Of a stretch of DNA of 64,000 nt, positions 20,031 through 64,000 are shown piece by piece. The position numbers and the translations under genes were made by a program. Numbering within the stretch: position 1 is the stretch's first letter; the number at the start of each line of letters is the position of its first letter. The stretch is from Trypanosoma brucei (lineage: Eukaryota), in contig AL929603.2 in NCBI GenBank assembly GCA_000002445.1, forward strand, positions 928,001 to 992,000. Reading direction: 5' to 3'. Below the pieces are notes generated by a model. The model was not told the DNA's origin. It searched no databases and worked only from the letters and a program-made list of their open reading frames with translations.

Positions 20031-20111
20031 TTATATCATTTTTCATTTCGTTTCATTTTATATCATTTTTCATTTCGTTTCATTTTATATCATTTTTCAT
20101 TTCGTTTCATT
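20031..20111. repeat. 27-nt minisatellite x3 (unit 3 spacer)
   Basis: The same 27-mer as at 13841, three copies. The unit 4 spacer has another three copies at 23158-23238. Confidence 0.85.
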
Positions 20112-25424: not shown

Positions 25425-26894
25425 CGGTCCAACTGAGTGGTGAGCACTCCATCGAGTCTGTGTGGTGATGCTGTGGACGGCGTGTCCCCACTGGTTGGAC
25501 TGTAGTTTCTTCCCTCCCTTTTTTTATATTACGTTATGTTTTTTTTTTTCATTTTCCACTCCCTTTCTTTGCCGTTTGCACTTTGCTCGCTTGCATTAAG
25601 GATGTCTTGGGGGTCTCTGGACCGAGTGCTGTAAGGAGGAGGGGGCAATCCTTCCCTATACAAATTACCACATATACTCATTTACACTTATACACATATA
25701 CGCTTTCTATCAATCCCCACTATTTATATATACCGATTCAATTATATGACCATGGAAAAAACATATATACAACTTCCTCCGTATGTAACAGCTTCCCCCG
25801 GTACGGCACATAGACCGTCACGGGCCTCCCATTGACATAACTTGTGCAAGACTCCTGTTCCCTGCTAATTGCAGGGAAGAGACGGCTAATTGGAACTACA
25901 CCTTCCTCACCCTCATTGTTTTCATTGTTTTCTTTTGTATTTCTATTAACCTAAGATAATTTCACTCGCTGTACTTTCTTCCCTCCCTACATCTATATGT
26001 TCCCTTATATAACTTTTATACACATGTTTTTTCCTCTCTTTTTCATCCTATACAAACATATAAGCATATCTATATACACGTATATACATACATATATATG
26101 TTTGTTTTTATATGCCGTGACTTTGTTTCTTTTTCCCCCTTTTTATCTCTTTTTATCCCTTTCTTTCTTTTTTTACTTTTTCATTTTGAATGCCCTTATG
26201 TAAGTAAACGCTTCTTACTAATAGAGGATTGTCCTTGGCAATTTCTCTCTTATCATTTTATTTTCCTCTCCCTTGTTCTTTTCGTTTTATATCATTTTTC
26301 ATTTCGTTTCATTTACTATTTTATTTTACTTTTGTTTCATTTACTATTTTATTTTACTTTTGTTTCTATTTTTGTTTCCGCTGCTCACACACACACCCTG
26401 CTCTTCCAGTTGCATGACATCATTACACACTAATTGCAGTGGTGCTCCATTTGCTGTTTGCTGAAACGTTTGATTTATTTCTTGTCCCTTTCCTCAAGCA
26501 TCTCTTCGTTTAGGCAACACACCATCTTTATGACAAGTGTTTATTGTAATTGTGGTGTTGTGTGATGCAGCGGTAGATTGGACGTGTGTGTACACTTGCA
26601 GCAGTGCCTCGCACAAATCGTATCTCCTCCCGGGACTTGTGCATGCAAGTTCCCCAATTTTTAACCCGTGGCCTTGTCACCCGTTACGCTGTGTCTGCTT
26701 TTCGTTTGTTTTGTCTCTTTCTCCCAAATTCCTTTTTGCTTCTACCTTCTGTTTATTGATGCGTGTGATAGTGTTTTCCGCTATCGGAACCAGAAGACCA
26801 TAAGCAAGGTAACATCTGAGGCCAACCCAATTGCCATCATTTTCTTTGTCGTGAATTGTGAAGCAAACCTCTACCAAGCGTTATTTGAATAGCG

Positions 26895-28334: not shown

Positions 28335-28339
28335 TGACT

Positions 28340-31300: not shown

Positions 31301-33191
31301 GAAAAAGAAAAATTAAAAATTAAAAAAAATGTGAAAAAAAAAAGAGTCAGACAGGCACAAAAACACAAACACGCAAACACACGCATATGCGCACACATAT
31401 AAATACACATATAGATAAATACAAATAATGATGGGAAAAAAAATGTAAATAGCTATTACTATTATTACTATTATTATTATTATTACTATTATTATTATTG
31501 TTATTAGTTCGTCATTATTATGAGTTTTCGCTTTTTGTTCATTCCCCATTTGCACAAAACATATGAAACACACACATGTATGCATATTCGCGTCCATTCG
31601 CTCATAGAAAGCAGAAAAGAAGAAACAAAAACAACAACAACAGCAACAACAACAGAAAAAAGATTCAAATGACAAAAATCATCAGAAGAAAAAAAAAGAA
31701 AAAAGAGAAAACGTTTATGTAAATATAATTAAGAAAAGTTACGTTAGCGTTTGGATGCGGGCGCATATTTATGTGTTTTGTGTGTTTTATGTGTGTGGAA
31801 TAAATGTTTGAGGAATGAAATAATGAGCTGGCAGAAGCTGACGGTACGAAATGACAGCAAAAAACAATAACAACACCCCTCATCTTTTTCTTTTTCTTCT
31901 TTTTTTTTTTTCATCATTTTCTGAATGGGAAATTTCCCTTCTTTTTCTTTTTTTTCTTTTTTTCTTCTTTTTTTTCCACTCATGAGTTTCATTTATTTAT
32001 CTATTTGTTGAATGACTGATCGTTTCCTGTACTACCTTTTTTTTATTTGAAGCTCAGGGTGAAGTGATGCGTTTCATTTGCATCATTATTAACAACAAGA
32101 AGTTCAAAGAAAAGAAAAAAAAACGAAAGAAATAAAACAAAGCGAAAATAAAATAAAATAAAATAAAAAAAGAACAAAAGTAAAATCAAGTGGGAGAGCA
32201 ATTCGTTTGTTTTGATTTGATTTGATTTGGTTTCATCTTATATTTTTAGTTCAACAAATAAATAAATAAATATGTTGCCTCAAAAGCGCGAAATGAAAAT
32301 GAATGAATGAATGAATGAATGTTAAAGAAACCCCGCCCCCCCCCCCCCCAAAAAAAAAGAAAATAAAAAAATGACAAAAAAAAAACACAAACCTGCAATT
32401 AAAAAAAAAAAACAACAAAACAACAACAACCCACTAAACAAAAAAAAAAGAAGAGAAATTGTAAAAAAAAAAAGGAAACAACACAAAATAAATAAATGTG
32501 TTCATTTTTAGTAATAACAACAGGTAAGAGACAGAACCAAAGAGAGAGAGAGAGAGAAAAAAAAAAAAGGAGATGAAGAAGAAGAAGGGGGAGGGAGATA
32601 ATTTTCCTTTTGCCATCCTCTACCTTCTTTTTTTTTCCTTTGTTCTTTAAAATTATTATTCCCTCTTATCCTTTTTCTCTTTTTGAAAAAAATAAATTAA
32701 AAAAAAACAAAGTGAGTTTAAACAAAAAATAAATAAATAAATAAACAGGCGACGCGGCTCAAATTAAAAATGACTATTTTCCCTCCCTCCCTCTCTCTCT
32801 CTCTTACTTTACTTTGCTTTGCTTTGATTTGATTTGATTTGCTTTTTCTTGTTTTAATTCTTTACAACAAGAGGAAAGTTCAGAAGTGGGAAAAGTGAGA
32901 AAATGTTTGTTCTGCGCGCGTGTTTGTATTTAAAAGAAGCAACAAAAAAAATAAAAATAAAAATAAAAAAATAAAAAAAAAAGCGAGAAAAGAAAATAAA
33001 AAAGAAGACAACAGAAACAAGAAGCAAAAGAAGAAAGATGAAATGAAATGAAATGATATGATGTTTCGATTGGAAGGAAAATGAGGACATGCAGAGAAAC
33101 GGTTTTTTTTATTTAAAAAAAAAGAGGAAAATAAAGAGGAAGCTGAAGAAAAAAACAAAACAAAACGAGCAGACAAACGAATCAGTCATAA

Positions 33192-33222
<31 letters not shown>

Positions 33223-34700
33223 GTTGTGACTATTATTATTATTATTATTGTTGTTGTTGTTGTTATGAATCTGAGTGGAATGCAGCATCAGCAGTAACAT
33301 CAACGAGAGAAAAAGGAAGGGAGATCAAAGAGACATGACAACACGAAATTAAAGAGAAGAAAAATAAAGATAAAAACGAAACAGAAAAGATGAAATGAAT
33401 GAATGAGAGAAAATTGAAGTTATTTCTCTTTTACCCAACGCTTTGGATTTTTTTTTTGTTACAGGTGATTATGGCGAAAAGCGAAAAAGGGAGAAGAGAA
33501 ACAACGGTTGCCAAATCCCAAATCCAAGCAGAGGGTTAAGAAAATAAAAGGAGAAATAAAAAAACAAAAACAAGTTGCCACTGAAGAGTTTTTTAAAACT
33601 TTCTTATGTTTGTCCCTTTGCCATTTCATTATTACCACGATCATCATATACGTATACATGCAAATATATAAATATATAAATATATAAATATATAATTTAT
33701 ATATATATATATATTTATATTTATTTATGTGCGTGTTTCGCCGCATTTTCTTTCTTACTTTTCCGTCGTGTTTGTGCGTTTTTCCTCTTTCCTCTTTCCT
33801 CTTTCTTTTTTTTTTCTTCGTTTTGCTTTTTTTTATTTTTTTTAAAAATATAATTGCTCACCTCCCTCTTTCTTTCCTTCCTTCCTTCCTGTATTCTTTC
33901 CCTCTCTTCCACTTACCTTTTTTTTTTCTTTTTGGTGTGCGTTCCCTGAGGTATTTTTGAACGTTTTAGAGATAAACACCTCGGGCTGAAGTGAATAAAA
34001 AAGGAAGAAAAAGAAAAAGAAAAAAAAAGGAAGTAACAAATAAGGAGAAAAGGAGAGAAGGAAAGGAAAAGAGAAAAAAAGAGTGAGAGAAAAAGAAAAA
34101 GAAAAAGAAAAAGGAGAAAGAAGAAAACCCAAATTGAACGCGGAATCGCATATTAGAAATACGAAGAGGAGAAAATATGTTGACAATATTAAAATAAAAA
34201 TAAAAAAAAAAGCAACGACATATCATCATCTACAGCATCATCTCCATATGATTTAAAAATGACAGTGCCCTTCAGTGGCGTTTCTTTCTTATTGAATTTC
34301 AACAAATTCCTCATCTTTATCTGTTTATTTATTTATTTATTTATTCGTCCATTCACTTCCTCTCTCACTTGTCTGCCTTTTCTTTTCTTTTCTTTTCCTT
34401 TCTTTTTTTTTCCTCTCTAAATTTATGAATGCTTTGTTTCAATAATTTCTACAGTTGGCTTGTGGTACTTAGTGTGGATAGAATAGGAGAAAAGTACTTG
34501 CCAACATTTAAGGTGAAGATTTTTGTTGTTTTTTTTTTGATTTGTTTACATTCAAATTATAATTAGTTTCACATTTATTCATTTAAAGTTGTTGAATTAA
34601 ATCGGGTGCGATAGGGTATTACACACGGGAGCAAACGCATTACGGTGAATTGCTTAACGTGTTTGAAACTTTTGCTCTGACGAGAGTTCGGATAAGAAGT
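28340..34700. repeat. ~6.3 kb gene-free, AT-rich, microsatellite-dense interval downstream of the CFB2-like gene
   Basis: No ORF longer than 177 aa, and all are low-complexity. Dense (ATT)n and (TTA)n at 33190-33260, (AATG)n at 32288-32312, poly-A, poly-T and poly-C runs at 32335-32350, (GA)n at 32535-32560, and (ATAAATAT) repeats at 33660-33700. Polypurine and polypyrimidine blocks alternate. Confidence 0.8.
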
Positions 34701-34749
34701 TGTGTTGTGTGGATTAGGACGGACAGACAAGAAAAAAAAAAAGAAAATT

Positions 34750-51542: not shown

Positions 51543-53555
51543 ATGGCGGCCTTCTTCGGTTCGCTGGTAAAGTCTTTTATTCTTCCCAAGCCTTCTCCTA
51601 CTTATAGTGCAGACAAACACCCTGGTAAACTGGTGCATATACCGAGGGTTGACTGGGATACACGGAAGGAAAATGGCACCTTTACGTACGGGTTGCTACT
51701 GCTCGACACGGCTGCTAAATTCATCATCATCTACGCTCACACAAATGCCGTAGACGTTGCGATGGTGTTTGAAACAATGTCATATGTAAGTAAGCGTACC
51801 TCTACCTCTGTACTGCTTGTGGAATACACGGGTTACGGAATTGCATATGGTGAGACGACAGAGCGTTCCATGAATGAAGATGTGCTGTCGGCGTATTATT
51901 ACGCTGTGCGTCACATGCGGGTGCCCGCTGATCGCGTAGTGCTGATGGGCTGTTCCATCGGTACGGGGCCATCAGCTCAAGTATGTGCGCTTCTGCAAGG
52001 TGAAGAGGAGGTTCCAGCACTTCTTGTGCTTCAATCCCCTTTTACATCACTAAAGGAATGCGCAAATGATATGACGCCCAATGTGGGCTCAATTGTGGGC
52101 TACTTGGGTTATGATTGGTTTCGTACCATTGACGTGGTTGCGCAGGTGCGATGCCCCATCATTATTCACCACGGGCAATGCGATGATGTGGTGCCGTTTG
52201 AACACGCGCAGCAGCTAAAACGGACCATCGAAGAGGCAACACCACCCGGTGTAGTGGAGCTCCATGCGGAACCGAATCGCGGTCACAACGATCTTCCCAC
52301 AGAGAGCGCGAATCGTTTTATAGATAAGAAACTACGATCGTTTGGGCAGCCGCGATGTCTACAACCCAGATGCCGGCCCTATCATTTAGTAAACCCATCC
52401 ATTTACGAGTATCTCTTCTGCGTGAAAGAGCAACCCATAATCAACATGGAAGAACTTCTAAAGCACTGGAATGAAACTTTATCCATAGGTTCCTTCGCCT
52501 ATAAGCGAGAGAAGCTGTACGTACTTCTCACAGCTTCCGTGTCACTCTTCGCTATGCGATGTGCCAGGGCGTGGCAACATTACGCGGGAAGTCGGAAGCG
52601 GCATTACGGTAACAGTTATAGCGCCAGTTGCAATGGCAGTGTTGGTGTTGTTGGTGGTAGTGGTGGTAACGGTGATGGCAGTGGCAGCGGTGCAGAGGAG
52701 TTATATTGTGCTAAGGAGGATATCATTAAGAGGTGTTTAGCCTGTTGGGGAAGTCCTCTTGGTGCCTACTTAAGTGTACGTGGCCCTCCAATCCGTCACA
52801 AGATATTTGGCGTTCACTTGGATGTGTGTGTGGAGAATGTGGTGGCTAGCGATGGTATTAGCAATGAATCGGGTTTCCGTTCTTGTGGAGGCAATCCCTA
52901 TTTCCTGAAGCGTGATACAGGGGAGGCATACTTGAGCGTAGCGGAGTTGGAGTTTACGCATGGCTTAACAAGAAGCGTCGCTGCAGCCATGTCCACCGCT
53001 CCCACTCTTGGCGGTGAGGAAGATGAAATGGACGTGTTTCTTCAGAAGAATGTGGTTACGAGAATACAGACACAATGTGAGCGTGTGGTTGCGTTTCTTG
53101 ATAGTAATGAGTGGGAGAATATGTTGGAAGTTCTCGTGAGATTTGGCCAGCGAGCACCATCGTTTCTCAGCAGTAAAGCGCTGCAGTATTATTCGGAGTG
53201 CTCATCTCAGGCACGCTTCGGTGACAGTTGTGGGACCGGTGCCGCGTGTTGCGGTAATGATAGCGGCCCGGCACCACGCAGCGAAGTGATGGAAACCATT
53301 GAAGATGTTGATGAGTGGCTCAGGCCGTGGGTTGTTAGTCCTGACACGCGAATGCAATTGGGAACGGAGGTGCCTTGGGATTATTACCTTTTGAAGGCTC
53401 GTCTTTGTGTCATTGAATACACGCCGCTGGGACCCGATACGAGTTGGGAGGAGGCGCGACGCATTACTGACGCGTGGAGGGTTGTGAAGATAATTCATGA
53501 CCTCTTTTGTAGTTACTCCCGCCGTGTCCTCCACCCCTCTTTCAGCGCGTCATGA
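51543..53555 (+). CDS. Alpha/beta-hydrolase, ABHD17/FAM108-like serine hydrolase domain (N-terminal ~300 aa) fused to a ~370-aa C-terminal extension
   Basis: - 'MAAFFGSLVKSFILPKPSPTY…' N-terminus, as in ABHD17-type depalmitoylases.
- Nucleophile elbow 'GCSIGTG' (G-x-S-x-G).
- 'IIHHGQCDDVVPFEHAQ…NRGHND' (acid and His region).
The start is at the second ATG; the upstream in-frame codons are poly-Ile from an AT-run. The C-terminal extension has a G/S-rich linker. Confidence 0.65.
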   Translation: MAAFFGSLVKSFILPKPSPTYSADKHPGKLVHIPRVDWDTRKENGTFTYGLLLLDTAAKFIIIYAHTNAVDVAMVFETMSYVSKRTSTSVLLVEYTGYGIAYGETTERSMNEDVLSAYYYAVRHMRVPADRVVLMGCSIGTGPSAQVCALLQGEEEVPALLVLQSPFTSLKECANDMTPNVGSIVGYLGYDWFRTIDVVAQVRCPIIIHHGQCDDVVPFEHAQQLKRTIEEATPPGVVELHAEPNRGHNDLPTESANRFIDKKLRSFGQPRCLQPRCRPYHLVNPSIYEYLFCVKEQPIINMEELLKHWNETLSIGSFAYKREKLYVLLTASVSLFAMRCARAWQHYAGSRKRHYGNSYSASCNGSVGVVGGSGGNGDGSGSGAEELYCAKEDIIKRCLACWGSPLGAYLSVRGPPIRHKIFGVHLDVCVENVVASDGISNESGFRSCGGNPYFLKRDTGEAYLSVAELEFTHGLTRSVAAAMSTAPTLGGEEDEMDVFLQKNVVTRIQTQCERVVAFLDSNEWENMLEVLVRFGQRAPSFLSSKALQYYSECSSQARFGDSCGTGAACCGNDSGPAPRSEVMETIEDVDEWLRPWVVSPDTRMQLGTEVPWDYYLLKARLCVIEYTPLGPDTSWEEARRITDAWRVVKIIHDLFCSYSRRVLHPSFSAS

Positions 53556-54544
53556 GTTGGCTGCAAACGCTGTGAGAGTAGTAAAAGTATACATGAAAGT
53601 TAATTAGGAGATAAGAAGGCAGAAAAAGGAAGGCTGGTGGCAATGGTGAAGTACGCGGGACAGTGCCATTGCCAATGGATCACATTCCGTGAAACCAGCA
53701 GCGGCAGTTACATAAGCGTAAAGCGGAACAATAACTAAGCAATCAGTTATGAGGCGCGGAATGAGGGGAAATAGCGATGCAGATAAGTTTAAAAGCAGGA
53801 AGAGCAACAAATAAATGTGCAAAATCCGCTCTGCGTGAGGCATACCCGCGTTAAAGGAGATTAAGCGAAAGGTTGGGTGGGAGAACCGGCTGCCTTCTTA
53901 TGCGGGGGTTTCCGACACAAGTTTCGCTTGTATGATCATCTCGCGGTTTCTTAATGGGCTCACTTCCACATGTCCGCTCTCTTTAAATGCACCTTGCTGG
54001 TCGTGTACCGCAGTTTCAAAGTGAACATATTTCCGTACCTCTTTCTTTTCCATTTTAGTCTTGTTTGTCCGTTAATTCGATGCAAAAGTTGCTTTCGTCG
54101 ATGCTCTCGTTGTTATTATTATTATTATTTGTTACAGTTGCCAGTTATTGCAATTTTTGTCTTGCCGTGGTCTCTGGATTTTGGAGTTCACGCGCTTATA
54201 TCTTCTCGCGCCGTTTTTTCGCTCACTCAATTTGTTTGTCTCTCCGCTATTTCTTCTATTTGTTTATTTATTTCGGCCTCCGCTACTGCGTTTGCTATTT
54301 CTATCCTTTCTTTTGACCTTTGTAGAAGGGAACTGTTGTAGTTTCTTTTTCTGTCATTGCGTCTTACTTCAGGGCGCGTAGCGGATACTCAATAATTGTA
54401 GTAGAGGCACGGGTCTCAACTCTGTGGATCTTCTCGCATAGAAAAGGGCAGAAGTATATACATTCATAAATAAATATATATATATATATATCAGCACAAG
54501 CATACAGATTGTAGCAAACTCCATATAAAATTTAAAACAGTTAA

Positions 54545-55948
54545 ATGCGCTCGCGCGAGGTGTACAGCGGATCGCAACCCATAGAGGAATATCATTCACC
54601 CAGTTCCCCATCAATTTCAAGTTCTGGTGACCCCTGTCGTGAGCCCATATCACCTTTGGGGGATCGCACGTTGATTATGGCTTTAGACGGAATGTTGCAT
54701 GCCTCCCGCAAGGATGGCGGATTTGAGGGAGTGCTACGTTACGACGACTTGCGGCAGTTGTTGGCGAGGTTGGGCCTTACGTGGGAAACAGATCGTATTG
54801 ATGACTGTTGGTATGATATAGTGAGGGGTCATGCCGCGCCAGTTGCGGATGACATGTCATGGGTTCGACATTGCGTTTGTGAACACCTCTATGGAGAGTG
54901 CGCTGGGATAAGCACCACAGAGCTTTTGAGTGAGCAGCAGACACTTTCACCGCGGGACGAATTCTGTAATCTCGCGGAACTAAATGCCATCTCTGCATGG
55001 CGTACACCCGCGAAAGAAAAGAGGGATCGAACACAAGCGGTAGCGCCGTCGAAATTCACGTTAAGGGCGAAAACTGTGGTTAAAGGAGGTGCCGGTTTGG
55101 AAGGGACGTCGCCTAAACGAGAAGCGCAGCCGCAACGACAGCGGTCTCCGCCGCGGTCAGCGACATCACCTCAATTGTTGTTCGATGAGGCGGTGTGCGG
55201 CAGAGGTATTAGTCCACGTCAGGGCATCTGCTTTACGTCACCTACGATGTCAAGTATGCGGAGGGGGCGCGCTACCGCTGTAATGTCGAGGCACCGGTCT
55301 GGATTAAGTACTGACAGTTTCCCTAGACGAAGGAGTCCCTCACCATCGTCGCATGGTGATGTGTTCCACCGCCTAACAGAAGATGCCCACAGCAGGAGAA
55401 ATCGGCAACTTGCCGTTGCTGCAGCAGCCGTTGAGGCTCAATCGGCAGCGCAAACGGGGGGCACCGTTTCCACAAGTCCTGCGCGATCCCGTCGTCCATC
55501 ACCTGGTGGGCGTGGGATGTGGGAACGGCCAACAAAATCATACCAGGCTAAGTTTTCTGGTGAGCCTCCACCATTTGACCCTCTTGAGTCACAACCGGCC
55601 ACTCCACCCGTGACGAGGCATAAACCACCGGGACCTTCGTCTTTTGTACCAACGGGATATGTAGAGGCGGTAGCGCGGTTGCGAAAATACGCATCATCAC
55701 GCCCACATTATCAGGACTTCATGAGCTCTCTTCGTTCAGAGCCCGTAACTTCTCACGTAGTCGATGATACGCCAATTCTTAGATTGCCAGTGCGGGGGGG
55801 TGCTCGGCAGTTTTCGGGAAAAGTTGTTGATGTGCGACTCGCAACGCCCACACGGTCACGATCCAACGATGTGCTTCGTGATGTGCCGTATGATGATCCA
55901 TCGCGGGTGATTTATCAAAACATGCTGCGGGGAAGGCGGTGTGCATAA
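54545..55948 (+). CDS. Hypothetical S/P/R-rich, probably disordered protein (467 aa)
   Basis: Long ORF. The N-terminal ~150 aa are non-repetitive. The remainder is proline-, serine- and arginine-rich. No motif recognised. Confidence 0.45.
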   Translation: MRSREVYSGSQPIEEYHSPSSPSISSSGDPCREPISPLGDRTLIMALDGMLHASRKDGGFEGVLRYDDLRQLLARLGLTWETDRIDDCWYDIVRGHAAPVADDMSWVRHCVCEHLYGECAGISTTELLSEQQTLSPRDEFCNLAELNAISAWRTPAKEKRDRTQAVAPSKFTLRAKTVVKGGAGLEGTSPKREAQPQRQRSPPRSATSPQLLFDEAVCGRGISPRQGICFTSPTMSSMRRGRATAVMSRHRSGLSTDSFPRRRSPSPSSHGDVFHRLTEDAHSRRNRQLAVAAAAVEAQSAAQTGGTVSTSPARSRRPSPGGRGMWERPTKSYQAKFSGEPPPFDPLESQPATPPVTRHKPPGPSSFVPTGYVEAVARLRKYASSRPHYQDFMSSLRSEPVTSHVVDDTPILRLPVRGGARQFSGKVVDVRLATPTRSRSNDVLRDVPYDDPSRVIYQNMLRGRRCA

Positions 55949-56447
55949 GTTTTATACGCCGAGGCGGCATAGACGCGATTTCCATAGGGATGTTTTGTTT
56001 TTGTTTTTTACTTTCCCTGCTTTTATATCATTATTGTTAGTCTTTTTTTTCTTTTTTGAACGATTTTCTTCCGCATTTTTATTTTGAATATCAGGCACGC
56101 TAGAATTTTTAATTTCATAGAAAAATGTACGTTTTGAGCTTCTGTATTGCGTATTCTCGTGAAATGAGTTCATTCCTTTCTTTTTTTAAAAAAATTGTTG
56201 ATCCTTTTTTTTTCCCCCTCCCCTGTTCCTACCGGCCCCATGTCTTTTAACCATTGTGCTTGTGACCCATCGCTTGTAATGAAAATAACATTTTCTTTCC
56301 ATATAAATTTGTTTGTAATGTATCTGTATTTGTGTGTGTTTACTTTAGGCGTAGTGACACACACACACACAAAAAAAAAAAAATAGGAGGGGAAACCTGT
56401 AAGTCCAGCCCAACCGCGTGAGGTTGCGTATAGTTTGAGCCACTGCA

Positions 56448-57101
56448 GTGGGCATTTCAATGCGGTTGTCTAATCGTTGCCTCATAAAGCGGGATTTTGA
56501 TGCTTGGGCTTATAACATATACTGGCCGCAGAAAAAGGCGTTTCTTCCACTAATGGGCTTCGCGAGTTTAACAGTTGAGGATATTAAGTTTGCATACAAT
56601 GCGTGGTGTCTCTTGCGTCTCGCAATGTTTTATGGTGCCACACACCCAAAGGTTCTCAGTCCATTAGTGAACTGCACTCCATCAATGGACATCATACATG
56701 GCGGAAATCGAATTTTTTACATGCACTCGCAAGTGTCCACTCCCCTTTCACAACGAAAAATAAAAGTTGCACTAACTCCCTGCCATCCCGGGGCACAATT
56801 ACTGCAGTCATTTCCGTGGGAAACTGCAGCTCAACAGGGCGGTTGGGGTTCAACGGAGGGCGATGATAATTGCGGCGTGGAGATAATTCTCGGAATGGAA
56901 AATGGCATGTCTGAAGAGGTACGTGCGGGATGTGATTATTGCCTTTACGTGCCTCAATACGGTTCTGTAGGTTCACTTTCAATGCTTTCAGCAATGGCAA
57001 TTGCCGTACATTTGGCCTTCTGTGCGCGGTGGATGAGGCGGGGTACTGAAGTGAATGAACGACTTGTACCATTTTTGGGGGCATATGCCTTTGAGCAGTG
57101 A
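56448..57101 (+). CDS. SpoU/TrmH-like RNA 2'-O-methyltransferase-fold protein (217 aa; motif 1 degenerate)
   Basis: Motif 2-like 'VEIILGMENGMSEEV' and motif 3-like 'DYCLYVPQYGSVGSLSMLSAMAIAVHLAF' (the SpoU family consensus is lvlGnEg.Gls … v.IPm.g…SLNvsvAaaI). The motif 1 position is degenerate ('AYNAWCLLRLAMFYGAT' versus NxGaiiRta.afG). Confidence 0.5.
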   Translation: MGISMRLSNRCLIKRDFDAWAYNIYWPQKKAFLPLMGFASLTVEDIKFAYNAWCLLRLAMFYGATHPKVLSPLVNCTPSMDIIHGGNRIFYMHSQVSTPLSQRKIKVALTPCHPGAQLLQSFPWETAAQQGGWGSTEGDDNCGVEIILGMENGMSEEVRAGCDYCLYVPQYGSVGSLSMLSAMAIAVHLAFCARWMRRGTEVNERLVPFLGAYAFEQ

Positions 57102-57912
57102 CGCCAATGGCACAATTGCGCCCTGTACGCTTCCACATGAGAAAAATCTTATACACTTTAGTAATGAAGAAATTCGAGCTTTACTTGCGGAGAGGCGCCT
57201 GCAGTATCGAATGCAGCTTTCCGTGATGGTATATAATGAGTTTGGTGATCGCAACATTGGGGCCATCATGCGCAATGCAAATGTGTTCAATTGCGAGGAA
57301 CTTATTGTTCTGAATCGTCGCAAGTTTAACCGGCGGGGTGCCGTTGGTACACATCATGTGCTCACGACGACATTTCACGCTACTTTGCACGACAGGAGTT
57401 GTCAGTCACGTTTGCAGGGTTATGTGTTGTGGCTACTGCATCAATATTATCCATATCTGAAAGTTTATGGTGCATCTCCATCTCCATCTAATGATAATGA
57501 TAATGATAATGATGTTGCCACTTTCCTTCGACACGACAACATTCACTTGCAACGTTGGCTTCGATGTAATGGTTACCAACACAATGAAGCGGGCCCAATC
57601 GCTAATATAACTGCAAGTTTTGGAACTGGTGACCACTGGGTTCATCTTATTGGAAAGGAAGTTTATCTTGACGATGAGAGTTCACTTGTGTCCGCAGTAA
57701 AGTCAGCTGCTGCAGCGGGATATCGCGGCATAATGTTAGTGGTTCCTGAAGAGGGCGCAACATTACCATTAGAATTGGTGAAAGAGTCACAACGCGTAGT
57801 TTTTATTGCACATCCCAATCGACTTGCACGGGATGTGCAGCGTGGACTTAATGGTGCACTCGCGACGGCGGTTGCTCTCGAGCGCCTTCGAACCGCAATC
57901 GATAATATTTAA
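57055..57912 (+). CDS. SpoU/TrmH-like RNA 2'-O-methyltransferase (285 aa ORF; overlaps the preceding ORF by 47 nt in the +1 frame)
   Basis: - Motif 1 'NEFGDRNIGAIMRNANVF'.
- Motif 2-like 'IMLVVPEEGATLP'.
- Motif 3-like 'RGLNGALATAVALERL'.
The true start could be an internal ATG at 57211 or 57223. Confidence 0.55.
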   Translation: MNDLYHFWGHMPLSSDANGTIAPCTLPHEKNLIHFSNEEIRALLAERRLQYRMQLSVMVYNEFGDRNIGAIMRNANVFNCEELIVLNRRKFNRRGAVGTHHVLTTTFHATLHDRSCQSRLQGYVLWLLHQYYPYLKVYGASPSPSNDNDNDNDVATFLRHDNIHLQRWLRCNGYQHNEAGPIANITASFGTGDHWVHLIGKEVYLDDESSLVSAVKSAAAAGYRGIMLVVPEEGATLPLELVKESQRVVFIAHPNRLARDVQRGLNGALATAVALERLRTAIDNI

Positions 57913-58717
57913 GCATTCGGTGCTCTTCCGCCACGAGAAGTCACACGTGTAACATTAACTTGATTGCCCGCTTTTTTTTTACAATTTTGAAAAAAAAATT
58001 AACAAAAAAAAACCCTTTTCTCTCCTCCACTCTTCCCAGTATTTGTGTTCATGATGCGTGTGCCCGTGTGTATATATGTATATATATATGTGTGTGTGTG
58101 TTCAACCTTTGTTGTCATTTATCTTAACTGTTGAATGTCCACCATATAATGGCTTATGCAAGTGCCTCTTCACAGTTTCTTTCTTTTTTCTTATATTTGG
58201 AAGGAGAGAAGAAGGGGAGGGAGGGGGGACAAGGCTTTTTTTAAAAGATTTTTTTAAAAATTTTTATTTTCACAGATGGGGAGGGGAATTTATTAAAGTA
58301 CTGGGGGCGACATTAACTCCCATATGCATTTCGTTTCAGCAGTATGTGAGGGCCTGTTGCTCCCTCTTTCCTGCAATTATCGTCTAACAATAGTAGTTAT
58401 TATAATTATTGTTATTATTATTATCATCATCGTTATTTCTTCTCCTCACCATTTGGCACGTGAGGGAATTTGACATTTTCCATGGGAAGTGTCCTGCATT
58501 TCGTCTCTTCTTTCCTTTTCTTTCCTCACCTCTCTTTTTCTTTTTTATTTTCGAAGCGTAAGTTAACACAAGGTGTATGTTAATAAATTAAAAAAAAAAA
58601 GAGAAAGAAAGAAAGAAGTATCCACCGCAAGTGGCGCTGTCGTATAGGTTTATTTTAGGAGAGAAGTGATTCAGAAATACTTCACACACACCAATTGGAA
58701 TCATTTTATAAGGAATC

Positions 58718-59620
58718 ATGTCGGAACCCGTTGATCAGTTATTAAAAACGTACCTTCAGTCATGTGATTATTCAATTGATTCCTCTTCCAGGAAGAAAGC
58801 ACTTGAAATGTCATGTTTGTGTTGCCATGTTTATGGTGGTGAAGGACATCTTCCTGATGGTTGGCTCGTATGCACTCGTGAAGTTGAGGGACTTAAAAAA
58901 AGGGACGAGAGTTGCGGTTTTCGATCTGAATTGTACACAAATGGTTCCAAATATGTACTCGCCTTTGCGGGAGTTCACGACAACCGAAGCGCTTTTGAAA
59001 GTGCGCTGCAATTAGTTGGAAAATCGGATGCGTACAAGTTAGCAGCGGCAAATGCGGCGTTGGTGGTTTCCGCTTTTGGATTATCAAATGTTTCATTCAC
59101 GGGGCATTCGCTTGGCGGTGGTTTGGCGACTGCAGCTGCTGTTTTTACCGGCGCTCCCGCCATTACCTTCAATCCCGCTTGGCTTTCATCATCCACAAGA
59201 TCCGAGTTGTTAAAATTCCCTTCGGTTGAGGTAATTAATTATGTTATTTTTGCCGAAGCGCTTGATGTGTTCCAACGACATCCGCAACTTCTGAACTCCG
59301 TCCCTGCTGGAGCTTTTTTTGCTGGACTTCTCAGTAACAGCAAAATTCAACAGTTTGGCACATTTAAATATATTTACTGTAAAGTTATACATGACAGGCC
59401 ACATTATATTGATGCTCACCTCATAGAGACAATTATTGAGGAATTACGGAAGGAAAATGGAGAAAAAATTTCAGCTTCCGACCTGGCCGCTTCATCACTC
59501 CATGAAGATGTTATGGGAGGTATGGCACAACTTGTGCAACAAAAGATGTCAGTTATTATGGAAGTTGTTGCGTCTGTCATGTCAAAGCAATTTTCTGCCG
59601 GAGGGTTCGGTTCTTCATGA
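58718..59620 (+). CDS. Alpha/beta-hydrolase, lipase-like protein with GHSLGG nucleophile elbow (300 aa)
   Basis: 'VSFTGHSLGGGLATAAAVFTGAP' is a classic G-H-S-x-G lipase or esterase serine motif. 'AFAGVHDNRSAFES' upstream resembles the preceding strand of the fold. Confidence 0.55.
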   Translation: MSEPVDQLLKTYLQSCDYSIDSSSRKKALEMSCLCCHVYGGEGHLPDGWLVCTREVEGLKKRDESCGFRSELYTNGSKYVLAFAGVHDNRSAFESALQLVGKSDAYKLAAANAALVVSAFGLSNVSFTGHSLGGGLATAAAVFTGAPAITFNPAWLSSSTRSELLKFPSVEVINYVIFAEALDVFQRHPQLLNSVPAGAFFAGLLSNSKIQQFGTFKYIYCKVIHDRPHYIDAHLIETIIEELRKENGEKISASDLAASSLHEDVMGGMAQLVQQKMSVIMEVVASVMSKQFSAGGFGSS

Positions 59621-61770
59621 ACTCATAACGCAAAAAAAAAAAAGAACAATAACAACAACAACAACAACAAAAGAAGTAAAATGAAAAAAAAAAAAGAAAA
59701 AGAAAAAGAAAAGAAAAGAAGAAAAGCCACGGGAGTGTGAAGGAGAAGTAATGGGTCGGGAAAAAGAGAAATGTTGCCGGACACCTGCAGCGCTAAATCA
59801 ATGGAAAGTCCCTTAAATTGTCAATCCGCTTTCTCACAACCTCGTGGCATTTTTTTTTGTTTTTTGTTTTCCGCAATGCGACTTAAAGAGGTGTGTGACG
59901 GCAGAAGGGCCCGTGGGATGAAGTTGTAAGCGTATACATTTGTGTACATAAATATATAAATATGTAAATATGTATTTATATACGTGCATTTCATTCCTGT
60001 CTGTAATATTTGTTTGTGAGGTTGCGGCACATTTCGTTGTATTCGGCGTCCATAACTTTCCAACATTTTTGTTTTTTTTCTCCTCTTTCCAAAAAATGTT
60101 GGTTCCCACTTCCCTCGCATTCCCCCGCTTATTCTTCTGTGCCATTTTTTTTGGAGACTATTTTCCATTCCTATTTATTATTACTAATTATTGTTATTAT
60201 TATCACTATTATTATTATTATTAATTGCCATTTATGTCATTATTACAAAATAACCAATTATTATTATTATTACTATTTTTATTAAAGCTGTTGCACTGCG
60301 GAGGACATTTGATGCCCTTTCGCGTTTGAAGTAATTGCGATGTTGACTGTCTGAATTTCATATATATAAATATATATATATATATTTATTTATTTCTTTC
60401 CTCCCTTCCTCTTTTGTTTATTCCTCTGTTATTTCTGTAGCGAATGTAACGAAGAAGTGATGTTGCCGGCGCCAGTTCATTAAGAGGAGATGTTTCTGTT
60501 CTGTTCTGTTTTTTTTTTTGATTCTCCCACAATTCCACGTTTAACCTTCCAACTGTGTGACTGGTGGTAGAGAAAAATAAAAAATATTTTTTTCTGGTTT
60601 AAACAAAGAAAATCCGCTTCCAATTTGAATTGCGCAAAAACCCTCGTCAAAGCCAGTGATTTCTTGAGATGCGGGAATTCCAAATATATTCGAGCGATGG
60701 AGTCGCGTCAGATGTTGTGTCATAACTTCACAATTAACTCCCAAACACACACGCGCACACAAAAATAAGATAAAAATAAATCAAATAAAAATAAATAATG
60801 GGAAGCGTTGCGGCACACTCCAAATGTGCAGGGACTCATGAAGTGCATTTTGGTTTCGATGCCTTCGCAGTGATATTTTTTTTCTGGCGCATTTTCCTCT
60901 TATTTGTGCGTTACGCAAATGTTAATTTGTGAAATGTCGCACGGGGGAAAAGAGAAAAAAAGAAAACACAAGCAGAGATGGAGCCTCAAAGAAAGCGCTG
61001 TATTTTTTTTTTTTTGTGGTTGCAGCTCCAAAGAAATTAATTGGTGGAGGCGACGCCGGTTAACGATATGTTTTGCAACCGTTGCAGCACTGAGAGTTGT
61101 CGCGGCATCCCAACTTCATAGTTCCCGTACGCGATAAATAAATGAGAAGTTAAGTGTTAACTGCTGAAACAAATAAATGCAAAATTAGTCTTAAAGGCGA
61201 GAATAAAAAAAAAAGGAATGGAGGGAGGGGTGACGGTTGAATTGTTGATGTTTATGGAAAGTACTGCGAGTTGAGGGGTTTAACAATTTATAATAATAAT
61301 TTTCTACTTGCGATAACGAAGTGTCTGCGATCGTCCTGAGGTTTGCAGGCAACCAATAATATTTGTGCCCACATTGAGCTGATGAACAGAAGGTATTACA
61401 CGGCAACCAAAAAATAAGACCAAACAAAATTAAGCCTCTCTCCCCTTTGCCGAACTTGAAAATAAACTAAAAAAATTGTTAACTCAGAGTCCGATAGTGC
61501 GTAGGTATTTCAAGGAGAATGGAAGGAAACGCAAGGGAAGTGTCGATGACGATGATGTTATAGATGAAGAAGGATTTACAATGAGGAAGCAACATACCCT
61601 AATGGGTTTAATGGCTTTTGCAGCAGTTTTGGTTATGTAATTCAATGTTATATTTTATGCTACGGTTCTGTTATTGGTATTGTGCGTTTGTGATACCCAC
61701 TGCTTTTTTGTGTAATGGAGGGGATGTGTTTTTCCTCTTTTATATCTTTTGCCACATGTGATTGTAGGTA

Positions 61771-62757
61771 ATGAAAGTTACGATAGCGGAATTGGTTGTT
61801 TTGTTATTTTCTGTAATTTGTATTGATGGGAAGGAGGACAATGGGTGTACGTTGATAACAGATTATCACGGTGATGCACCTTTAAGTGAGTCCGTATGTT
61901 ATCTCAGTTGTCTTTCGAATGCATTAAATAAATTGTACAGCGAGGGAGAGAGGAGGCTGTTTGTGAATGAGGAAGTGTATGCAAATGCATTTCGTATATT
62001 GGATGATATGGAAGGAAGAGCAGGTGAAAGTGTTAGATATTTGAGTATTATTAGTGTTGCGATGGTAAAGGAAAATAATAGGTTGGAAAAGCTTATATCT
62101 CATGGAAATGCAATGGGAGACCTTGTAGCTAAGGCTGGTGGATTATTTGCTGAGGTTAATGAAAGTGTGAGGGCAGTGAGGAAAGAAATACCTGGTGCCC
62201 TTATAAAAGTGAATAAATATTATACGGCTATTGCTGAGATCACAAGGACTGTGTGGGATGATGTTAAAGCTGTGGAAAGTGGAAAGCACGAATGTAAAGA
62301 TCAAGAGTTTAGAGGTGTTAAAGAGTTTGACGTTACATGTGGAGATAACGCATGTCTGCTGGCACATGGTGTGAGTGAGGGCGCCCTCAAACATTATAAG
62401 AATGGGCTTCTTGAAATAAACGTGATGACAAAGTCCGGTGGGGTGAGCAAATGCCTCAACTTACCACGCAATAACCTGTATAAGAGTGGTGCGGTAAACA
62501 ATTCAAACAAAGTACTGGATTGGCGTGATGATGCTGACACTGTCACTCACTTTCTACTCAAACTGAAAATACGGGACATCTTTAGCACCCTCATCGCACC
62601 TTTTGCTGCTGGACAACCACCTTCTGCACTCTTGGACATGATGGCCAATATCACTTCACTTTACTCCCGTTTCAATGAAGTCCACAGGAGTTTCACTTCG
62701 TTGCTGTTCGACACGAATAGCATTGATAATGTGAAAAGCACTAATTCTACCATCTGA
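61771..62757 (+). CDS. Putative secreted or surface protein with N-terminal signal peptide (328 aa), possibly related to a VSG or surface-glycoprotein N-terminal domain
   Basis: - Hydrophobic N-terminus 'MKVTIAELVVLLFSVICIDG' followed by a Cys-containing, helix-rich sequence with several N-x-S/T sites.
- No C-terminal hydrophobic or GPI-like tail.
- Codon and base composition (AT-rich, G+T-skewed flanks) differ from the neighbouring housekeeping genes. Confidence 0.45.
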   Translation: MKVTIAELVVLLFSVICIDGKEDNGCTLITDYHGDAPLSESVCYLSCLSNALNKLYSEGERRLFVNEEVYANAFRILDDMEGRAGESVRYLSIISVAMVKENNRLEKLISHGNAMGDLVAKAGGLFAEVNESVRAVRKEIPGALIKVNKYYTAIAEITRTVWDDVKAVESGKHECKDQEFRGVKEFDVTCGDNACLLAHGVSEGALKHYKNGLLEINVMTKSGGVSKCLNLPRNNLYKSGAVNNSNKVLDWRDDADTVTHFLLKLKIRDIFSTLIAPFAAGQPPSALLDMMANITSLYSRFNEVHRSFTSLLFDTNSIDNVKSTNSTI

Positions 62758-64000
62758 CAGATATTTTCAGATATTTTCCCTCGTTCTATAATAAAAATAA
62801 CTTTACGCGTGCGTGCTCTCATCCTTTTCAACTGATAATTTCTTTATCTGGAGTGTCCCTGTCTTGGTTATCTTAATTGTGAGTGTTAGTGACTGTGGTT
62901 GTCGCTCCACCATTTGTGTTGTAGGGTAGTGGGGTGTGTTAATTCTTTCTGCATGTGAAGTAAGGAAGAAATATTTGGTTTTGTGCTCACAAGAGTAGTT
63001 TTGTTGCCATTTATTTTTGGTTATGCAAAGAACCTGCGTGCAATGAAGATAAATGAGAATTCATTGAAAGGATGAGCGGTTACGTATGTAATATCCGTTT
63101 TTTTCTACCAGAGTGTCTCTAAGGATGGTGACTGGTGGGTGTGGCAAATGATCTAAATGGAGGTAATAACAGGGAGGGTCACTCGTTATTTTGGAACTGT
63201 TCTATTTTTTGGTGTGTTGGTGGCTAACATAATATCCCATCATGTCACCACATAATCAGCGGTTTCAGTAATGAGCATAATTGTTTGAGACGGTGTTTTG
63301 AGAATGCAACTTTTATCTTTATCATTTTGTGGCTTAAGAAAATGGAAGGGAGGAGGTTGTGCATGTTCACAAAGAGAGGAGCAAAGGCTGTTGTCAATAC
63401 CTGTATGAAAGGAGGAGGATGTGCTAAATGAGGCTCAGTAGCAAAGTTGTGTGCATTGGATAAGGGTAAGACATACATGCAAATTAAGCGCGTAATCTAT
63501 TAGAGAGTAAAGGCATAAAGTAACAACTGAAAGTAATGGGGTCAGAGGAGGGTATGGAAAAACATAGCATGAATGTGCAAGTACTCATTATGGTAGTGGA
63601 AGTGTTCATCTGGAGAGTAGATGAGCTCATTGAGAAACTCAAGAAATCGGTAGCACAACTAAGTTGGGAAAGTGTAATTACCTGGCATGGAGAGTAAGGA
63701 AGTGAATATGTTGGATGAAGAAATTAGGAGAAATGGTGTAACGAAAAGGAGAATACCGCAGTTGTGAGGAAGTCTAACGTTGATATCTAACTTCAGGCAA
63801 GGGAATTCATGTAACTGCGTGTTTCCGACGTGTGTTACGTTGTGTTGGGTGCTGCTGTAATTGGTTTGTGTCAGGCACTTTCAAGATCCGATATTTGGTT
63901 GTATATGTCTGTTGAGTGTGTCTGCCAATATCAGTAATGACTGTAATTATAAGCTTTTGTTTTTTCCTCCTTTTCGGCGGATGAATGTATAGGCAAAATT

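What the first reader, a model, noticed from the sequence alone, without database searches (positions are those of the whole stretch)
61771..64000. Signal-peptide protein gene and a compositional shift at the 3' end of the window
From ~60300 onward the sequence becomes AT-rich with G+T-skewed stretches. The 328-aa ORF encodes a cleavable signal peptide, multiple Cys, N-glycosylation sequons and long predicted helices. These features are reminiscent of trypanosome surface-glycoprotein or VSG N-terminal domains, but it has no C-terminal GPI or TM signal. It might be a truncated surface-antigen-family pseudogene or a secreted protein embedded in a housekeeping PTU. The window ends before the downstream context is visible.
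Basis: inference. Interest (0 to 1): 0.5.

Follow-up and report, generated by a model that had tools for sequence, protein, structure and literature searches.

The report
Chromosome-internal ESAG1 gene of Trypanosoma brucei
The open reading frame is an intact, already annotated copy of ESAG1, a secreted-type glycoprotein gene family found only in Trypanosoma brucei, sitting where the housekeeping core of chromosome 1 gives way to a block of expression-site-type genes, so it is real but ordinary.

Summary
The 328-aa ORF at 61771-62757 (+) is real. It matches Pfam ESAG1 over the whole profile (E=1.2e-116) and is 100% identical to CAJ16693.1, "ESAG1, putative", on T. brucei TREU927 chromosome 1. 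It is full length for its family: every member ends in a hydrophilic ...NSTI tail with no GPI or TM signal. It is therefore neither a truncated VSG nor a pseudogene, and dN/dS against paralogues is 0.17-0.40.

It follows phospholipase A1, the last core gene in the window. From about 61452 the DNA belongs to a repeated ESAG2-ESAG11-ESAG1 cassette:
- a 62-codon relic of the ESAG11 3' end (61452-61640);
- ESAG1;
- a 1.24-kb spacer that, in a collinear T. b. equiperdum locus, stops 3 nt before an ESAG2 start codon.

The gene is a mosaic. dS to its positional orthologue is 0.28, against 0.005 for neighbouring PLA1, and homology to that orthologous locus ends inside the 3' end of the CDS.

An AlphaFold model (pLDDT 75) shows a long three-helix bundle. 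It is closest to trypanosome HpHbR, GARP, FHR, MISP and ISG65, not to VSG. The compositional shift is real but modest and not unique in the window.

Verdict: already known. The fold prediction is the only mildly new point.

The parts
58718..59620 (+). Context: phospholipase A1 gene (TbPLA1), the last core, non-ESAG gene before the ESAG block.
   Evidence: The exact protein is CAJ16689.1, 'phospholipase A1, putative', T. b. brucei TREU927. TbPLA1 is Tb927.1.4830. There is a weak Lipase_3 hit at the GHSLGG motif. It is 99.6% identical in DNA to the T. b. equiperdum orthologue.
59621..61451 (.). Locus-specific intergenic DNA: low complexity, GC 0.36. It is shared only with the syntenic T. b. equiperdum locus, not with other ESAG1 loci.
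   Evidence: It aligns to L001 at about 88-100% per 200-bp bin. It has no match in L002, L003 or L004 upstream of about 61444-61455. It contains only simple repeats.
61452..61640 (+). Relic of the 3' end of an ESAG11 gene: 62 in-frame codons plus a stop, ending in a GPI-signal-like hydrophobic tail (...DDDDVIDEEGFTMRKQHTLMGLMAFAAVLVM*). There is no start codon and no upstream 310 codons. It marks the proximal edge of the duplicated ESAG cassette.
   Evidence: In-frame translation. It is nearly identical to the last codons of L004 8749-9870, a protein named ESAG11 by NCBI (RHW71319.1). Similarity to L004 starts at about window 61444-61455.
61641..61770 (+). ESAG11-ESAG1 intergenic spacer. It has a polypyrimidine tract (about 61729-61752, TTTTTCCTCTTTTATATCTTTTGCC) followed by an AG (61767-61768). 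This is the presumed trans-splice acceptor for ESAG1.
   Evidence: The sequence was read directly. It is almost invariant across the window, L001 and L004. The splice-site role is inferred from the general kinetoplastid rule, not tested.
61771..62757 (+). ESAG1-family coding sequence, 328 aa. Residues 1-20 are the signal peptide. The predicted helices are 37-97, 102-167 and 284-313. Residues about 170-265 form a Cys-rich head.
   Evidence: ORF. Pfam PF03238, 388.5 bits, E=1.2e-116, profile positions 1-227 of 227. 100% identical to CAJ16693.1 / XP_001219178.1. Family alignment. AF2 model. dN/dS 0.17-0.40.
62400..62705 (+). Recombination zone in the 3' third of the CDS. Identity to the positional orthologue falls to 0.71-0.84, and homology to that locus ends at 62705. 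From 62588 onwards the sequence is instead 95% identical to a locus on another T. b. equiperdum chromosome.
   Evidence: Identity profile. BLAST end points. Three-way alignment. The best match changes from one 40-aa segment to the next.
62758..64000 (+). ESAG1 3' flank, an inter-cassette spacer. It is G-rich on the + strand (GC skew +0.33) and has no ORF longer than 77 aa. By collinearity it runs up to an ESAG2 start codon 3 nt beyond the window end.
   Evidence: Window 62588-64000 matches L004 5796-7207 at 95%. The last 121 nt are 100% identical to L004 7087-7207, and an ATG follows at L004 7211. That ORF hits VSG_B, as expected for ESAG2. The published gene order is Tb927.1.4880 hypothetical, 4890 ESAG2, 4900 ESAG11. 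There are no tandem or 70-bp repeats and no Rfam hit.

Best explanation
The ORF is an intact chromosome-internal member of the ESAG1 family (a 'GRESAG1') on chromosome 1 of Trypanosoma brucei TREU927. It is already annotated as CAJ16693.1. From consecutive accession numbering I infer that it is Tb927.1.4870.

Locus. The gene lies exactly where the conserved core ends, with TbPLA1 as the last core gene. A head-to-tail block of ESAG2-ESAG11-ESAG1 cassettes, the promoter-distal gene set of bloodstream VSG expression sites, begins there.

Origin (shown by comparison). The first cassette is truncated. Only the last 62 codons of ESAG11 survive upstream of ESAG1, so the segment arose by duplication or transposition of an ESAG11-ESAG1 piece into this site.

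Maintenance (shown).
- The coding sequence is under purifying selection.
- It is a patchwork of tracts shared with different paralogues.
- It is far more diverged from its positional orthologue than the neighbouring gene is.
- This is the known gene-conversion behaviour of the ESAG1 family.

Expression (inferred). The gene is probably transcribed by RNA polymerase II as the tail of the long + strand polycistron. It is probably trans-spliced at the polypyrimidine/AG site just upstream of the ATG. Stage control is probably post-transcriptional.

Product (partly shown, in silico).
- A cleavable signal peptide would take it into the ER.
- It has up to four N-glycan sites.
- The mature ~34-kDa protein (~308 residues, before glycosylation) is predicted to be an elongated three-helix bundle with a small Cys-rich head.
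- It has no membrane anchor.

Most likely role (inferred, weak). It is a soluble, or only peripherally membrane-bound, ligand-binding glycoprotein of the secretory or endocytic lumen. It is probably not a coat or plasma-membrane protein.
For: Identity:
- Pfam ESAG1 E=1.2e-116.
- 100% identical to CAJ16693.1 on a 1,064,672-bp T. brucei TREU927 contig.
- 88% identical to T. b. rhodesiense 'ESAG Ia'.
- The family is limited to the T. brucei group: only 4 cluster representatives among 1.84 billion proteins. This agrees with Jackson 2013.

Context:
- All 20 upstream ORFs of at least 180 aa except one overlapping ORF are on the + strand, and those with Pfam matches are housekeeping-type (VTT, RING, PRMT, SET, FAM91, Vps39, S9 peptidase, SpoU).
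- PLA1 is CAJ16689.1.
- The syntenic T. b. equiperdum locus has the same gene order.

Cassette:
- ESAG11 relic.
- Window tail collinear with spacer-ESAG2-ESAG11-ESAG1 in L004.
- The literature lists ESAG2 and ESAG11 as Tb927.1.4890 and 4900, and again as 5100 and 5110 followed by an ESAG at 5120.
- The BES gene order is ...ESAG2, ESAG11, ESAG1.

Mosaicism:
- dS is 0.28 for ESAG1 against 0.005 for PLA1, in the same pair of genomes.
- Identity collapses after 62400 and homology ends at 62705.
- The best-matching paralogue changes from segment to segment.
- Published mean recombination tract length is 90 bp for ESAG1.

Coding constraint: dN/dS is 0.17-0.40 in all comparisons.

Fold:
- AF2 pLDDT 75, pTM 0.68, with core helices above 90.
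- The top 10 Foldseek PDB hits are all African-trypanosome three-helix-bundle proteins; HpHbR E=3.9e-4.

Against: - Expression of this particular copy was not tested. It is not among the chromosome-1 genes listed as bloodstream-up-regulated, while its neighbours Tb927.1.4880-4900 are.
- It lacks the family's usual Cys at about position 214 (GCL becomes GLL), which leaves seven Cys in the mature protein. It also has Leu in place of the near-invariant Pro196.
- The alignment behind the model is shallow: 38 sequences, all at least 53% identical to the query.
- No sequence-profile link to any solved structure or to ESAG11.
- The locus tag, the Pol II transcription and the splice site are inferences.
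- The ESAG2 gene beyond the window is inferred from another subspecies' locus plus a published gene list, not read directly.
Confidence: 0.9

Rival explanations
1. One reading: a truncated VSG or other surface-antigen-family pseudogene that has lost its C-terminal domain and GPI signal.
For: It has a signal peptide, Cys residues, sequons and long helices but no anchor. The predicted fold belongs to the broad class of long helical bundles that also includes VSG N-terminal domains; VSG545 reaches Foldseek E=0.15.
Against: - No VSG_A or VSG_B Pfam hit even at E<=1.
- The length and the C-terminus are the family norm in all 38 ESAG1 sequences.
- dN/dS is 0.17-0.40.
- The protein is 100% identical to an annotated full-length ESAG1.
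Confidence: 0.02
2. The ORF is intact but this copy is a silent or decaying spare. It would be kept open mainly because gene conversion from expressed paralogues keeps overwriting it, and it would serve at most as a sequence donor for expression-site ESAG1 genes.
For: - It has lost a consensus Cys and the near-invariant Pro196.
- It is not listed in the up-regulated chromosome-1 clusters, although the genes just downstream are.
- It is extensively mosaic.
Against: - The ORF is full length, and dN/dS is about 0.3 even in the 5' half compared with its positional orthologue.
- The presumed splice-acceptor region is conserved almost base for base across three loci.
- The same Cys loss is shared with P0002 and P0003, so this is a lineage variant rather than recent decay.
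- Absence from one tag-based expression list is weak evidence for a multi-copy gene.
Confidence: 0.12
3. The window end is part of a telomeric bloodstream or metacyclic VSG expression site, so this is a true Pol I-transcribed ESAG1 followed by 70-bp repeats and a VSG.
For: ESAG1 is the last ESAG before the 70-bp repeats in a BES. An ESAG11 remnant lies just upstream, as in a BES.
Against: - Housekeeping genes run up to 2.1 kb upstream on the same strand.
- There are no 70-bp or other tandem repeats downstream.
- The downstream DNA is collinear with a spacer leading into ESAG2-ESAG11-ESAG1.
- In the NJ tree the Lister 427-type BES copies form a separate clade.
- The syntenic locus lies 874-895 kb into a 967-kb chromosome, and at least another 56 kb follows it.
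Confidence: 0.01

Closest known systems
ESAG1 (Pfam PF03238) of T. brucei bloodstream VSG expression sites, e.g. VSG expression site-associated proteins 117A and 221A
   Same: It has the same family signature over the whole Pfam profile. It shares the length, the signal peptide, the conserved Cys framework (C43, C47, C175, C190, C195), the NITS sequon and the hydrophilic ...NSTI C-terminus. It shows the same mosaic, gene-conversion style of evolution.
   Different: It is only 53-63% identical to the BES copies 221A and 117A. It is not telomeric and is not followed by 70-bp repeats and a VSG. It lies next to housekeeping genes. It lacks the consensus Cys at about 214 and Pro196.
Chromosome-internal ESAG1-related genes (GRESAG1), e.g. 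T. b. rhodesiense 'ESAG Ia/If' (AAB04048.1, AAB04051.1) and the chromosome-1 paralogue CAJ16718.1
   Same: These are the closest sequences: 88% to ESAG Ia, 71% to CAJ16718.1, and 82% to the positional orthologue in T. b. equiperdum. They form one clade in the NJ tree. They share the loss of the Cys at about 214.
   Different: The match is patchy. The rhodesiense gene is best in residues 161-328 but poor in 81-120 (0.62), while the equiperdum orthologue is best in 121-160 but poor in 241-280 (0.42). No single known gene is collinear throughout.
African-trypanosome three-helix-bundle surface receptors: HpHbR (4x0j, 4e40), GARP (2y44), factor H receptor (6xz6), MISP (5vtl), ISG65 (7pi6)
VSG N-terminal domain and the VSG-like transferrin receptor (ESAG6/7)
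   Same: Both are long helical, Cys-containing, N-glycosylated trypanosome secretory proteins.

Membership tests
ESAG1 protein family (Pfam PF03238) | Significant full-length match to the family profile | tested here: met
   388.5 bits against a cut-off of 27, E=1.2e-116, profile positions 1-227 of 227. 43 homologues were found, all named ESAG1 where named.
ESAG1 protein family (Pfam PF03238) | Family-typical length, N-terminal signal peptide, conserved Cys framework and hydrophilic C-terminus without an anchor | tested here: met
   The protein is 328 aa against 309-334 aa in the family. It shares all 39 invariant columns, including C43, C47, C175, C190 and C195. Hydropathy supports the signal peptide and the lack of an anchor. 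Exceptions: the consensus Cys at about 214 is absent, and Pro196 is Leu.
Expression-site-associated gene in the strict sense (a gene inside a telomeric VSG expression site) | Location in a BES: downstream of ESAG2/ESAG11 and upstream of 70-bp repeats and a telomeric VSG | tested here: not met
   Housekeeping genes and PLA1 lie upstream, and only a 62-codon ESAG11 relic remains. There are no 70-bp repeats. The downstream DNA is collinear with a spacer leading into ESAG2. It is therefore a chromosome-internal 'GRESAG1'.
Expression-site-associated gene in the strict sense (a gene inside a telomeric VSG expression site) | Co-transcription with the active VSG by RNA polymerase I | not testable with these tools
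   This needs nuclear run-on or alpha-amanitin data, or RNA-seq assigned to this copy.
VSG (Pfam PF00913 A-type, PF13206 B-type) | Profile match to a VSG N-terminal domain family | tested here: not met
   ESAG1 was the only Pfam family at E<=1.
VSG (Pfam PF00913 A-type, PF13206 B-type) | C-terminal domain plus GPI-anchor signal | tested here: not met
   The C-terminus is ...DNVKSTNSTI, with mean hydropathy -0.19 over the last 20 residues.
Trypanosome three-helix-bundle receptors (HpHbR / GARP / FHR / ISG) | Elongated bundle of three long helices with a membrane-distal head | tested here: inconclusive
   The predicted model shows this architecture. The best PDB neighbours are these proteins. 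However, this is a prediction (pLDDT 75), TM-scores are 0.3-0.45, and generic bundles score similarly.
Trypanosome three-helix-bundle receptors (HpHbR / GARP / FHR / ISG) | Membrane attachment (GPI or a single TM helix) and cell-surface or flagellar-pocket location | tested here: not met
   There is no anchor signal. Published tagging found ESAG1 not to be surface-associated.
Trypanosome three-helix-bundle receptors (HpHbR / GARP / FHR / ISG) | Detectable sequence homology to a member | tested here: not met
   The ESAG1 profile against all PDB sequences gave 0 hits at E<=10. hhalign against the ISG-like ESAG11 gave probability 0.3%.

The most novel reading that the evidence does not exclude
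ESAG1 has been described as one of only two ESAG families with no homology outside T. brucei, possibly evolved de novo in the expression site (Jackson 2013). It may instead be an anchorless, highly diverged derivative of the African-trypanosome three-helix-bundle receptor fold seen in HpHbR, GARP, the factor H receptor, MISP and ISG65. If so, it would be a soluble ligand-binding protein of the secretory or endocytic lumen, and it would have an evolutionary origin like that of the other ESAGs.
Probability: 0.4. Interest if true: 0.35.

Novelty: already known. Interest (0 to 1): 0.15.

Why it matters
There is little new for the gene itself. It is an annotated ESAG1 copy in a reference genome, and internal ESAG clusters on chromosome 1 are already published.

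The analysis does place three things precisely:
- the core-to-ESAG-cassette boundary, at about window 61452;
- a truncated ESAG11 as the footprint of how the cassette was inserted;
- the ESAG1 CDS itself as a recombination hotspot where synteny between T. brucei subspecies breaks.

If the predicted three-helix-bundle fold holds, it gives a testable lead for ESAG1, an expression-site gene family to which the papers consulted here assign no function. ESAG1 would then be a soluble binding module related to known host-ligand receptors.

Tried and rejected
- Downstream sequence of TREU927 chromosome 1: an exact-protein look-up for P0001 and for the paralogue P0004 found nothing on record. T. b. equiperdum loci were used as proxies instead.
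- The 10 kb downstream of the syntenic equiperdum ESAG1 (L001): no homology to the window tail, no Pfam family in its ORFs apart from one sub-threshold DUF hit, and no tandem repeats. It says nothing about TREU927.
- A homologue search with the 62-aa ESAG11 relic found no candidates in the word index, after a first try with wrong-frame coordinates. Identity was established instead by DNA alignment and by the source's name for the L004 protein.
- A sequence route to a structure failed: phmmer and profile searches of PDB sequences gave nothing meaningful.
- The idea that ESAG1 is a diverged paralogue of the adjacent ISG-like ESAG11 was rejected by hhalign (probability 0.3%).
- The AFDB Foldseek library was unavailable.
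- Rfam found no RNA family in the whole window.
- Repeat scans of 57.9-64 kb found only low-complexity AT, A or TTA runs and no 70-bp repeats. No ORF in the tail exceeds 77 aa.
- Literature: the chromosome I paper and the 1996 ESAG I paper were not in the held library. No paper linking ESAG1 to a predicted fold was found. The 2026 complement-receptor preprint does not mention any ESAG.
Full report
**Observation.**
- The N-terminus MKVTIAELVVLLFSVICIDG is the most hydrophobic 19-residue window of the protein (Kyte-Doolittle 2.02). It is followed by a charged KED stretch, with I at -3 and G at -1. This is a heuristic signal-peptide call; no SignalP was available.
- There are eight Cys and four N-X-S/T sequons.
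- The last 20 residues are hydrophilic (mean -0.19). No internal segment reaches a transmembrane-like hydropathy; the maximum is 1.17, around residues 258-288.
- The compositional statement holds with qualifications. GC drops to 0.32-0.40 in the last 6 kb, but the drop starts near 57.8 kb rather than 60.3 kb.
- Intergenic GC there (0.36) is typical of intergenic DNA elsewhere in the window. The 6.4-kb gene-free stretch 28335-34701 is more AT-rich, at 0.294.
- Two things are special at the 3' end. The last two genes have the lowest coding GC of the 16 CDSs examined (PLA1 0.435, ESAG1 0.410). The G>C skew is strong: +0.25 in the CDS and +0.33 in 62758-64000.

**Identity.**
- The protein matches Pfam PF03238 (ESAG1) over the complete profile, with 388.5 bits and E=1.2e-116. 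No other family appears even at E<=1.
- It is 100% identical to CAJ16693.1 / XP_001219178.1, 'expression site-associated gene 1 (ESAG1) protein, putative'. That protein sits on a 1,064,672-bp contig of Trypanosoma brucei brucei TREU927, which I take to be chromosome 1.
- The neighbouring 300-aa ORF (58718-59620) is exactly CAJ16689.1, phospholipase A1, which the literature gives as Tb927.1.4830.
- Counting accessions forward, the ESAG1 gene should be Tb927.1.4870. The paralogue CAJ16718.1 should be Tb927.1.5120, which a published table lists as an ESAG following ESAG2 (5100) and ESAG11 (5110). This locus tag is an inference.
- A profile of 38 family members found only four cluster representatives among 1.84 billion proteins, all from the T. 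brucei group. This agrees with Jackson et al. 2013 that ESAG1 has no homology beyond T. brucei.

**Not truncated, not a pseudogene.**
- All 38 aligned ESAG1 proteins are 309-334 aa and end in the same hydrophilic ...N-S-T-I type tail. The missing GPI or TM signal is a family trait.
- Nei-Gojobori dN/dS between this gene and four relatives is 0.17-0.40, in both halves of the gene. This indicates purifying selection on the protein.
- There are two departures from the consensus. The usual Cys at about position 214 is absent (GCL becomes GLL), leaving seven Cys after signal-peptide removal. The near-invariant Pro196 is Leu.
- The Cys loss is shared with the closest relatives P0002 and P0003, so it is a lineage variant.

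**Genomic setting.**
- Upstream, all ORFs of at least 180 aa except one overlapping ORF are on the + strand. Those with Pfam matches are housekeeping-type: VTT, RING, PRMT, SET/MYND, FAM91, Vps39, an S9-type hydrolase and a SpoU methylase.
- The syntenic locus in T. b. equiperdum (L001, CM010672.1:874376-895359) has the same order: S9 hydrolase, a 467-aa protein, SpoU methylase, PLA1, ESAG1.
- Window 52001-62705 aligns to it at 96.7%. Identity is 0.93-1.0 per 200-bp bin through most of the region and 0.88-0.89 in the low-complexity bins 60001-60400. It is 0.94-0.96 in the 5' two-thirds of ESAG1 and 0.71-0.84 in 62401-62705. Homology stops at 62705, inside the CDS.
- dS between the two ESAG1 genes is 0.28 (0.11 in the 5' part, 0.48 in the 3' part), against 0.005 for the adjacent PLA1 genes. 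The two 'orthologues' have therefore been overwritten by paralogous sequence.
- The closest family member changes from one 40-residue segment to the next: P0005, P0024, P0005, P0003, P0002, P0003, P0002, P0002. This fits the published mean recombination tract of 90 bp for ESAG1.
- In a neighbour-joining tree this gene groups with T. b. rhodesiense 'ESAG Ia', the equiperdum copies P0003 and P0005, and the chromosome-1 paralogue. Expression-site copies such as 221A form another clade.

**The cassette.** Comparison with a locus on another T. b. equiperdum chromosome (L004, CM010678.1) explains both flanks.
- Gene order in L004: L004 carries an ESAG1 3' fragment plus spacer, then a VSG_B-type ORF split in two (ESAG2-like). 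An ESAG11 gene follows (373 aa, named ESAG11 by NCBI), and then ESAG1.
- Upstream flank: window 61444-62766 matches the end of that ESAG11, the intergenic spacer and ESAG1. Over 61455-61790 the match is nearly base-perfect.
- ESAG11 relic: in the window, 61452-61640 reads in frame as the last 62 codons of ESAG11 (...DDDDVIDEEGFTMRKQHTLMGLMAFAAVLVM*), with nothing of the first 310 codons. The ESAG block therefore begins at about 61452 with a truncated ESAG11.
- Downstream flank: window 62588-64000 is 95% identical to L004 5796-7207.
- Window end: the last 121 nt of the window are 100% identical to L004 7087-7207. The ESAG2-like ORF starts at L004 7211.
- Agreement with the literature: published lists put ESAG2 at Tb927.1.4890 and ESAG11 at Tb927.1.4900. 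The window most probably ends 3 nt before an ESAG2 start codon.
- Gene order in expression sites: ESAG2-ESAG11-ESAG1 is the promoter-distal gene order of bloodstream expression sites.
- What is absent: there are no 70-bp or other tandem repeats, no Rfam families, and no ORF longer than 77 aa in the tail.

**Protein architecture.**
- An AlphaFold2 model built on the 38-sequence alignment has mean pLDDT 75 and pTM 0.68. Helices 37-97, 102-167 and 284-313 score mostly above 90, and a less confident Cys-rich region lies between them.
- The ten best Foldseek matches in the PDB are all African-trypanosome three-helix-bundle proteins: T. brucei and T. congolense HpHbR (best E=3.9e-4), MISP, the factor H receptor, ISG65 and GARP. 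A VSG N-terminal domain (E=0.15) and the transferrin receptor (E=0.21) rank far lower.
- There is no sequence-level link. The ESAG1 profile finds nothing in PDB sequences, and hhalign against the ISG-like ESAG11 gives probability 0.3%.
- I therefore treat the three-helix-bundle architecture as a reasonable prediction. Homology to that receptor class remains an open possibility.

**How it most likely works.**
- Shown: this is an intact ESAG1-family gene at the core/ESAG-cassette boundary. It was derived from an ESAG11-ESAG1 segment, it is kept under coding constraint, and it has been reshaped by gene conversion.
- Inferred from kinetoplastid gene organisation: Pol II transcribes it as the distal part of the + strand polycistron, and it is trans-spliced at the conserved polypyrimidine/AG just upstream of the ATG.
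- Inferred from sequence and model: the product enters the ER, is N-glycosylated, and is a soluble or peripherally bound elongated protein.
- Gadelha et al. 2015 tagged the BES1 ESAG1 and found it neither in the surface proteome nor at the cell surface. A lumenal, endosomal or secreted role is therefore more likely than a coat or receptor role at the plasma membrane.
- The papers consulted here assign no function to ESAG1. ESAG1 is reported as not essential within an active expression site.

**Verdict.** Its interpretation is right in spirit (a trypanosome-specific secretory glycoprotein at the edge of a housekeeping unit). It is wrong in the specifics, since the gene is not VSG-like, not truncated and not a pseudogene. 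The gene is already annotated. Chromosome-internal ESAG2/ESAG11 clusters on chromosome 1, and ESAG1 mosaicism, are published. The only mildly new elements are the exact cassette boundary with its ESAG11 relic, the synteny break inside the ESAG1 CDS, and the predicted three-helix-bundle fold.

Noticed in passing
window 11385-28334 (+): There is a tandem array with a period of about 3.06-3.13 kb. It holds five near-identical 530-aa ORFs (11385, 14513, 17576, 20703, 23832) plus a 479-aa variant (26895-28334). None has a Pfam hit. The sequence contains an F-box-like motif (LTLHDVPESVLYGAIPYLSLPDVIALSRTCKKFHKLV). From memory, this looks like the CFB1 array followed by CFB2 on T. brucei chromosome 1. 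That identification was not checked.
   Followed up: partly
window 28335-34701: A 6.4-kb gene-free, very AT-rich (GC 0.294) low-complexity stretch follows the last array copy. It is full of poly(A), poly(T), TTA and AT runs. It is more extreme than the compositional shift in the finding. It may be a very long 3' UTR or intergenic region.
   Followed up: partly
window 56448-57912 (+), indel at 57077: The SpoU-methylase-like gene is split into two overlapping ORFs (217 aa and 285 aa). The cause is one extra G at 57077 relative to T. b. equiperdum, where it is a single 481-aa gene. This is either a real frameshift in TREU927 or a reference sequencing error.
   Followed up: partly
window 58718-59620 (+): This is the phospholipase A1 gene (TbPLA1, CAJ16689.1). 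A 2023 review reports it as probably acquired by horizontal transfer from a Sodalis-like bacterium. It has the lowest GC3 (0.355) of all CDSs in the window. It is the last gene before the ESAG block, so two lineage-specific acquisitions sit side by side at the edge of the core.
   Followed up: partly
protein P0050 (CBH09169.1, T. b. gambiense DAL972), orthologue of window 58718-59620: The T. b. gambiense orthologue of phospholipase A1 sits in the same 90%-identity cluster as the window protein. It is named 'expression site-associated gene 1 (ESAG1) protein, putative' in NCBI and UniProt. This appears to be an annotation-transfer error from the neighbouring gene.
   Followed up: no
L004 4356-5339; L003 5492-6283; L002 4556-4936 and 15713-16375: Ser/Gly/Pro/Gln-rich ORFs of 126-327 aa recur near the ESAG1 or ESAG2 genes in these three T. 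equiperdum / T. b. equiperdum loci; the longer ones have hydrophobic N-termini. Of the two that were scanned (L004 4356-5339 and L002 15758-16375, within the last ORF), neither has a Pfam match. This may be another small family associated with these cassettes. It is absent from the window.
   Followed up: no
L001 10985-20984 (T. b. equiperdum, downstream of the syntenic ESAG1): The 10 kb after the orthologous ESAG1 has no similarity to the window tail. It has only short overlapping ORFs without Pfam hits, plus a 271-aa ORF at 19521-20336. Either the ESAG cassette array is absent or rearranged at this position in that strain, or the assembly is collapsed there.
   Followed up: partly
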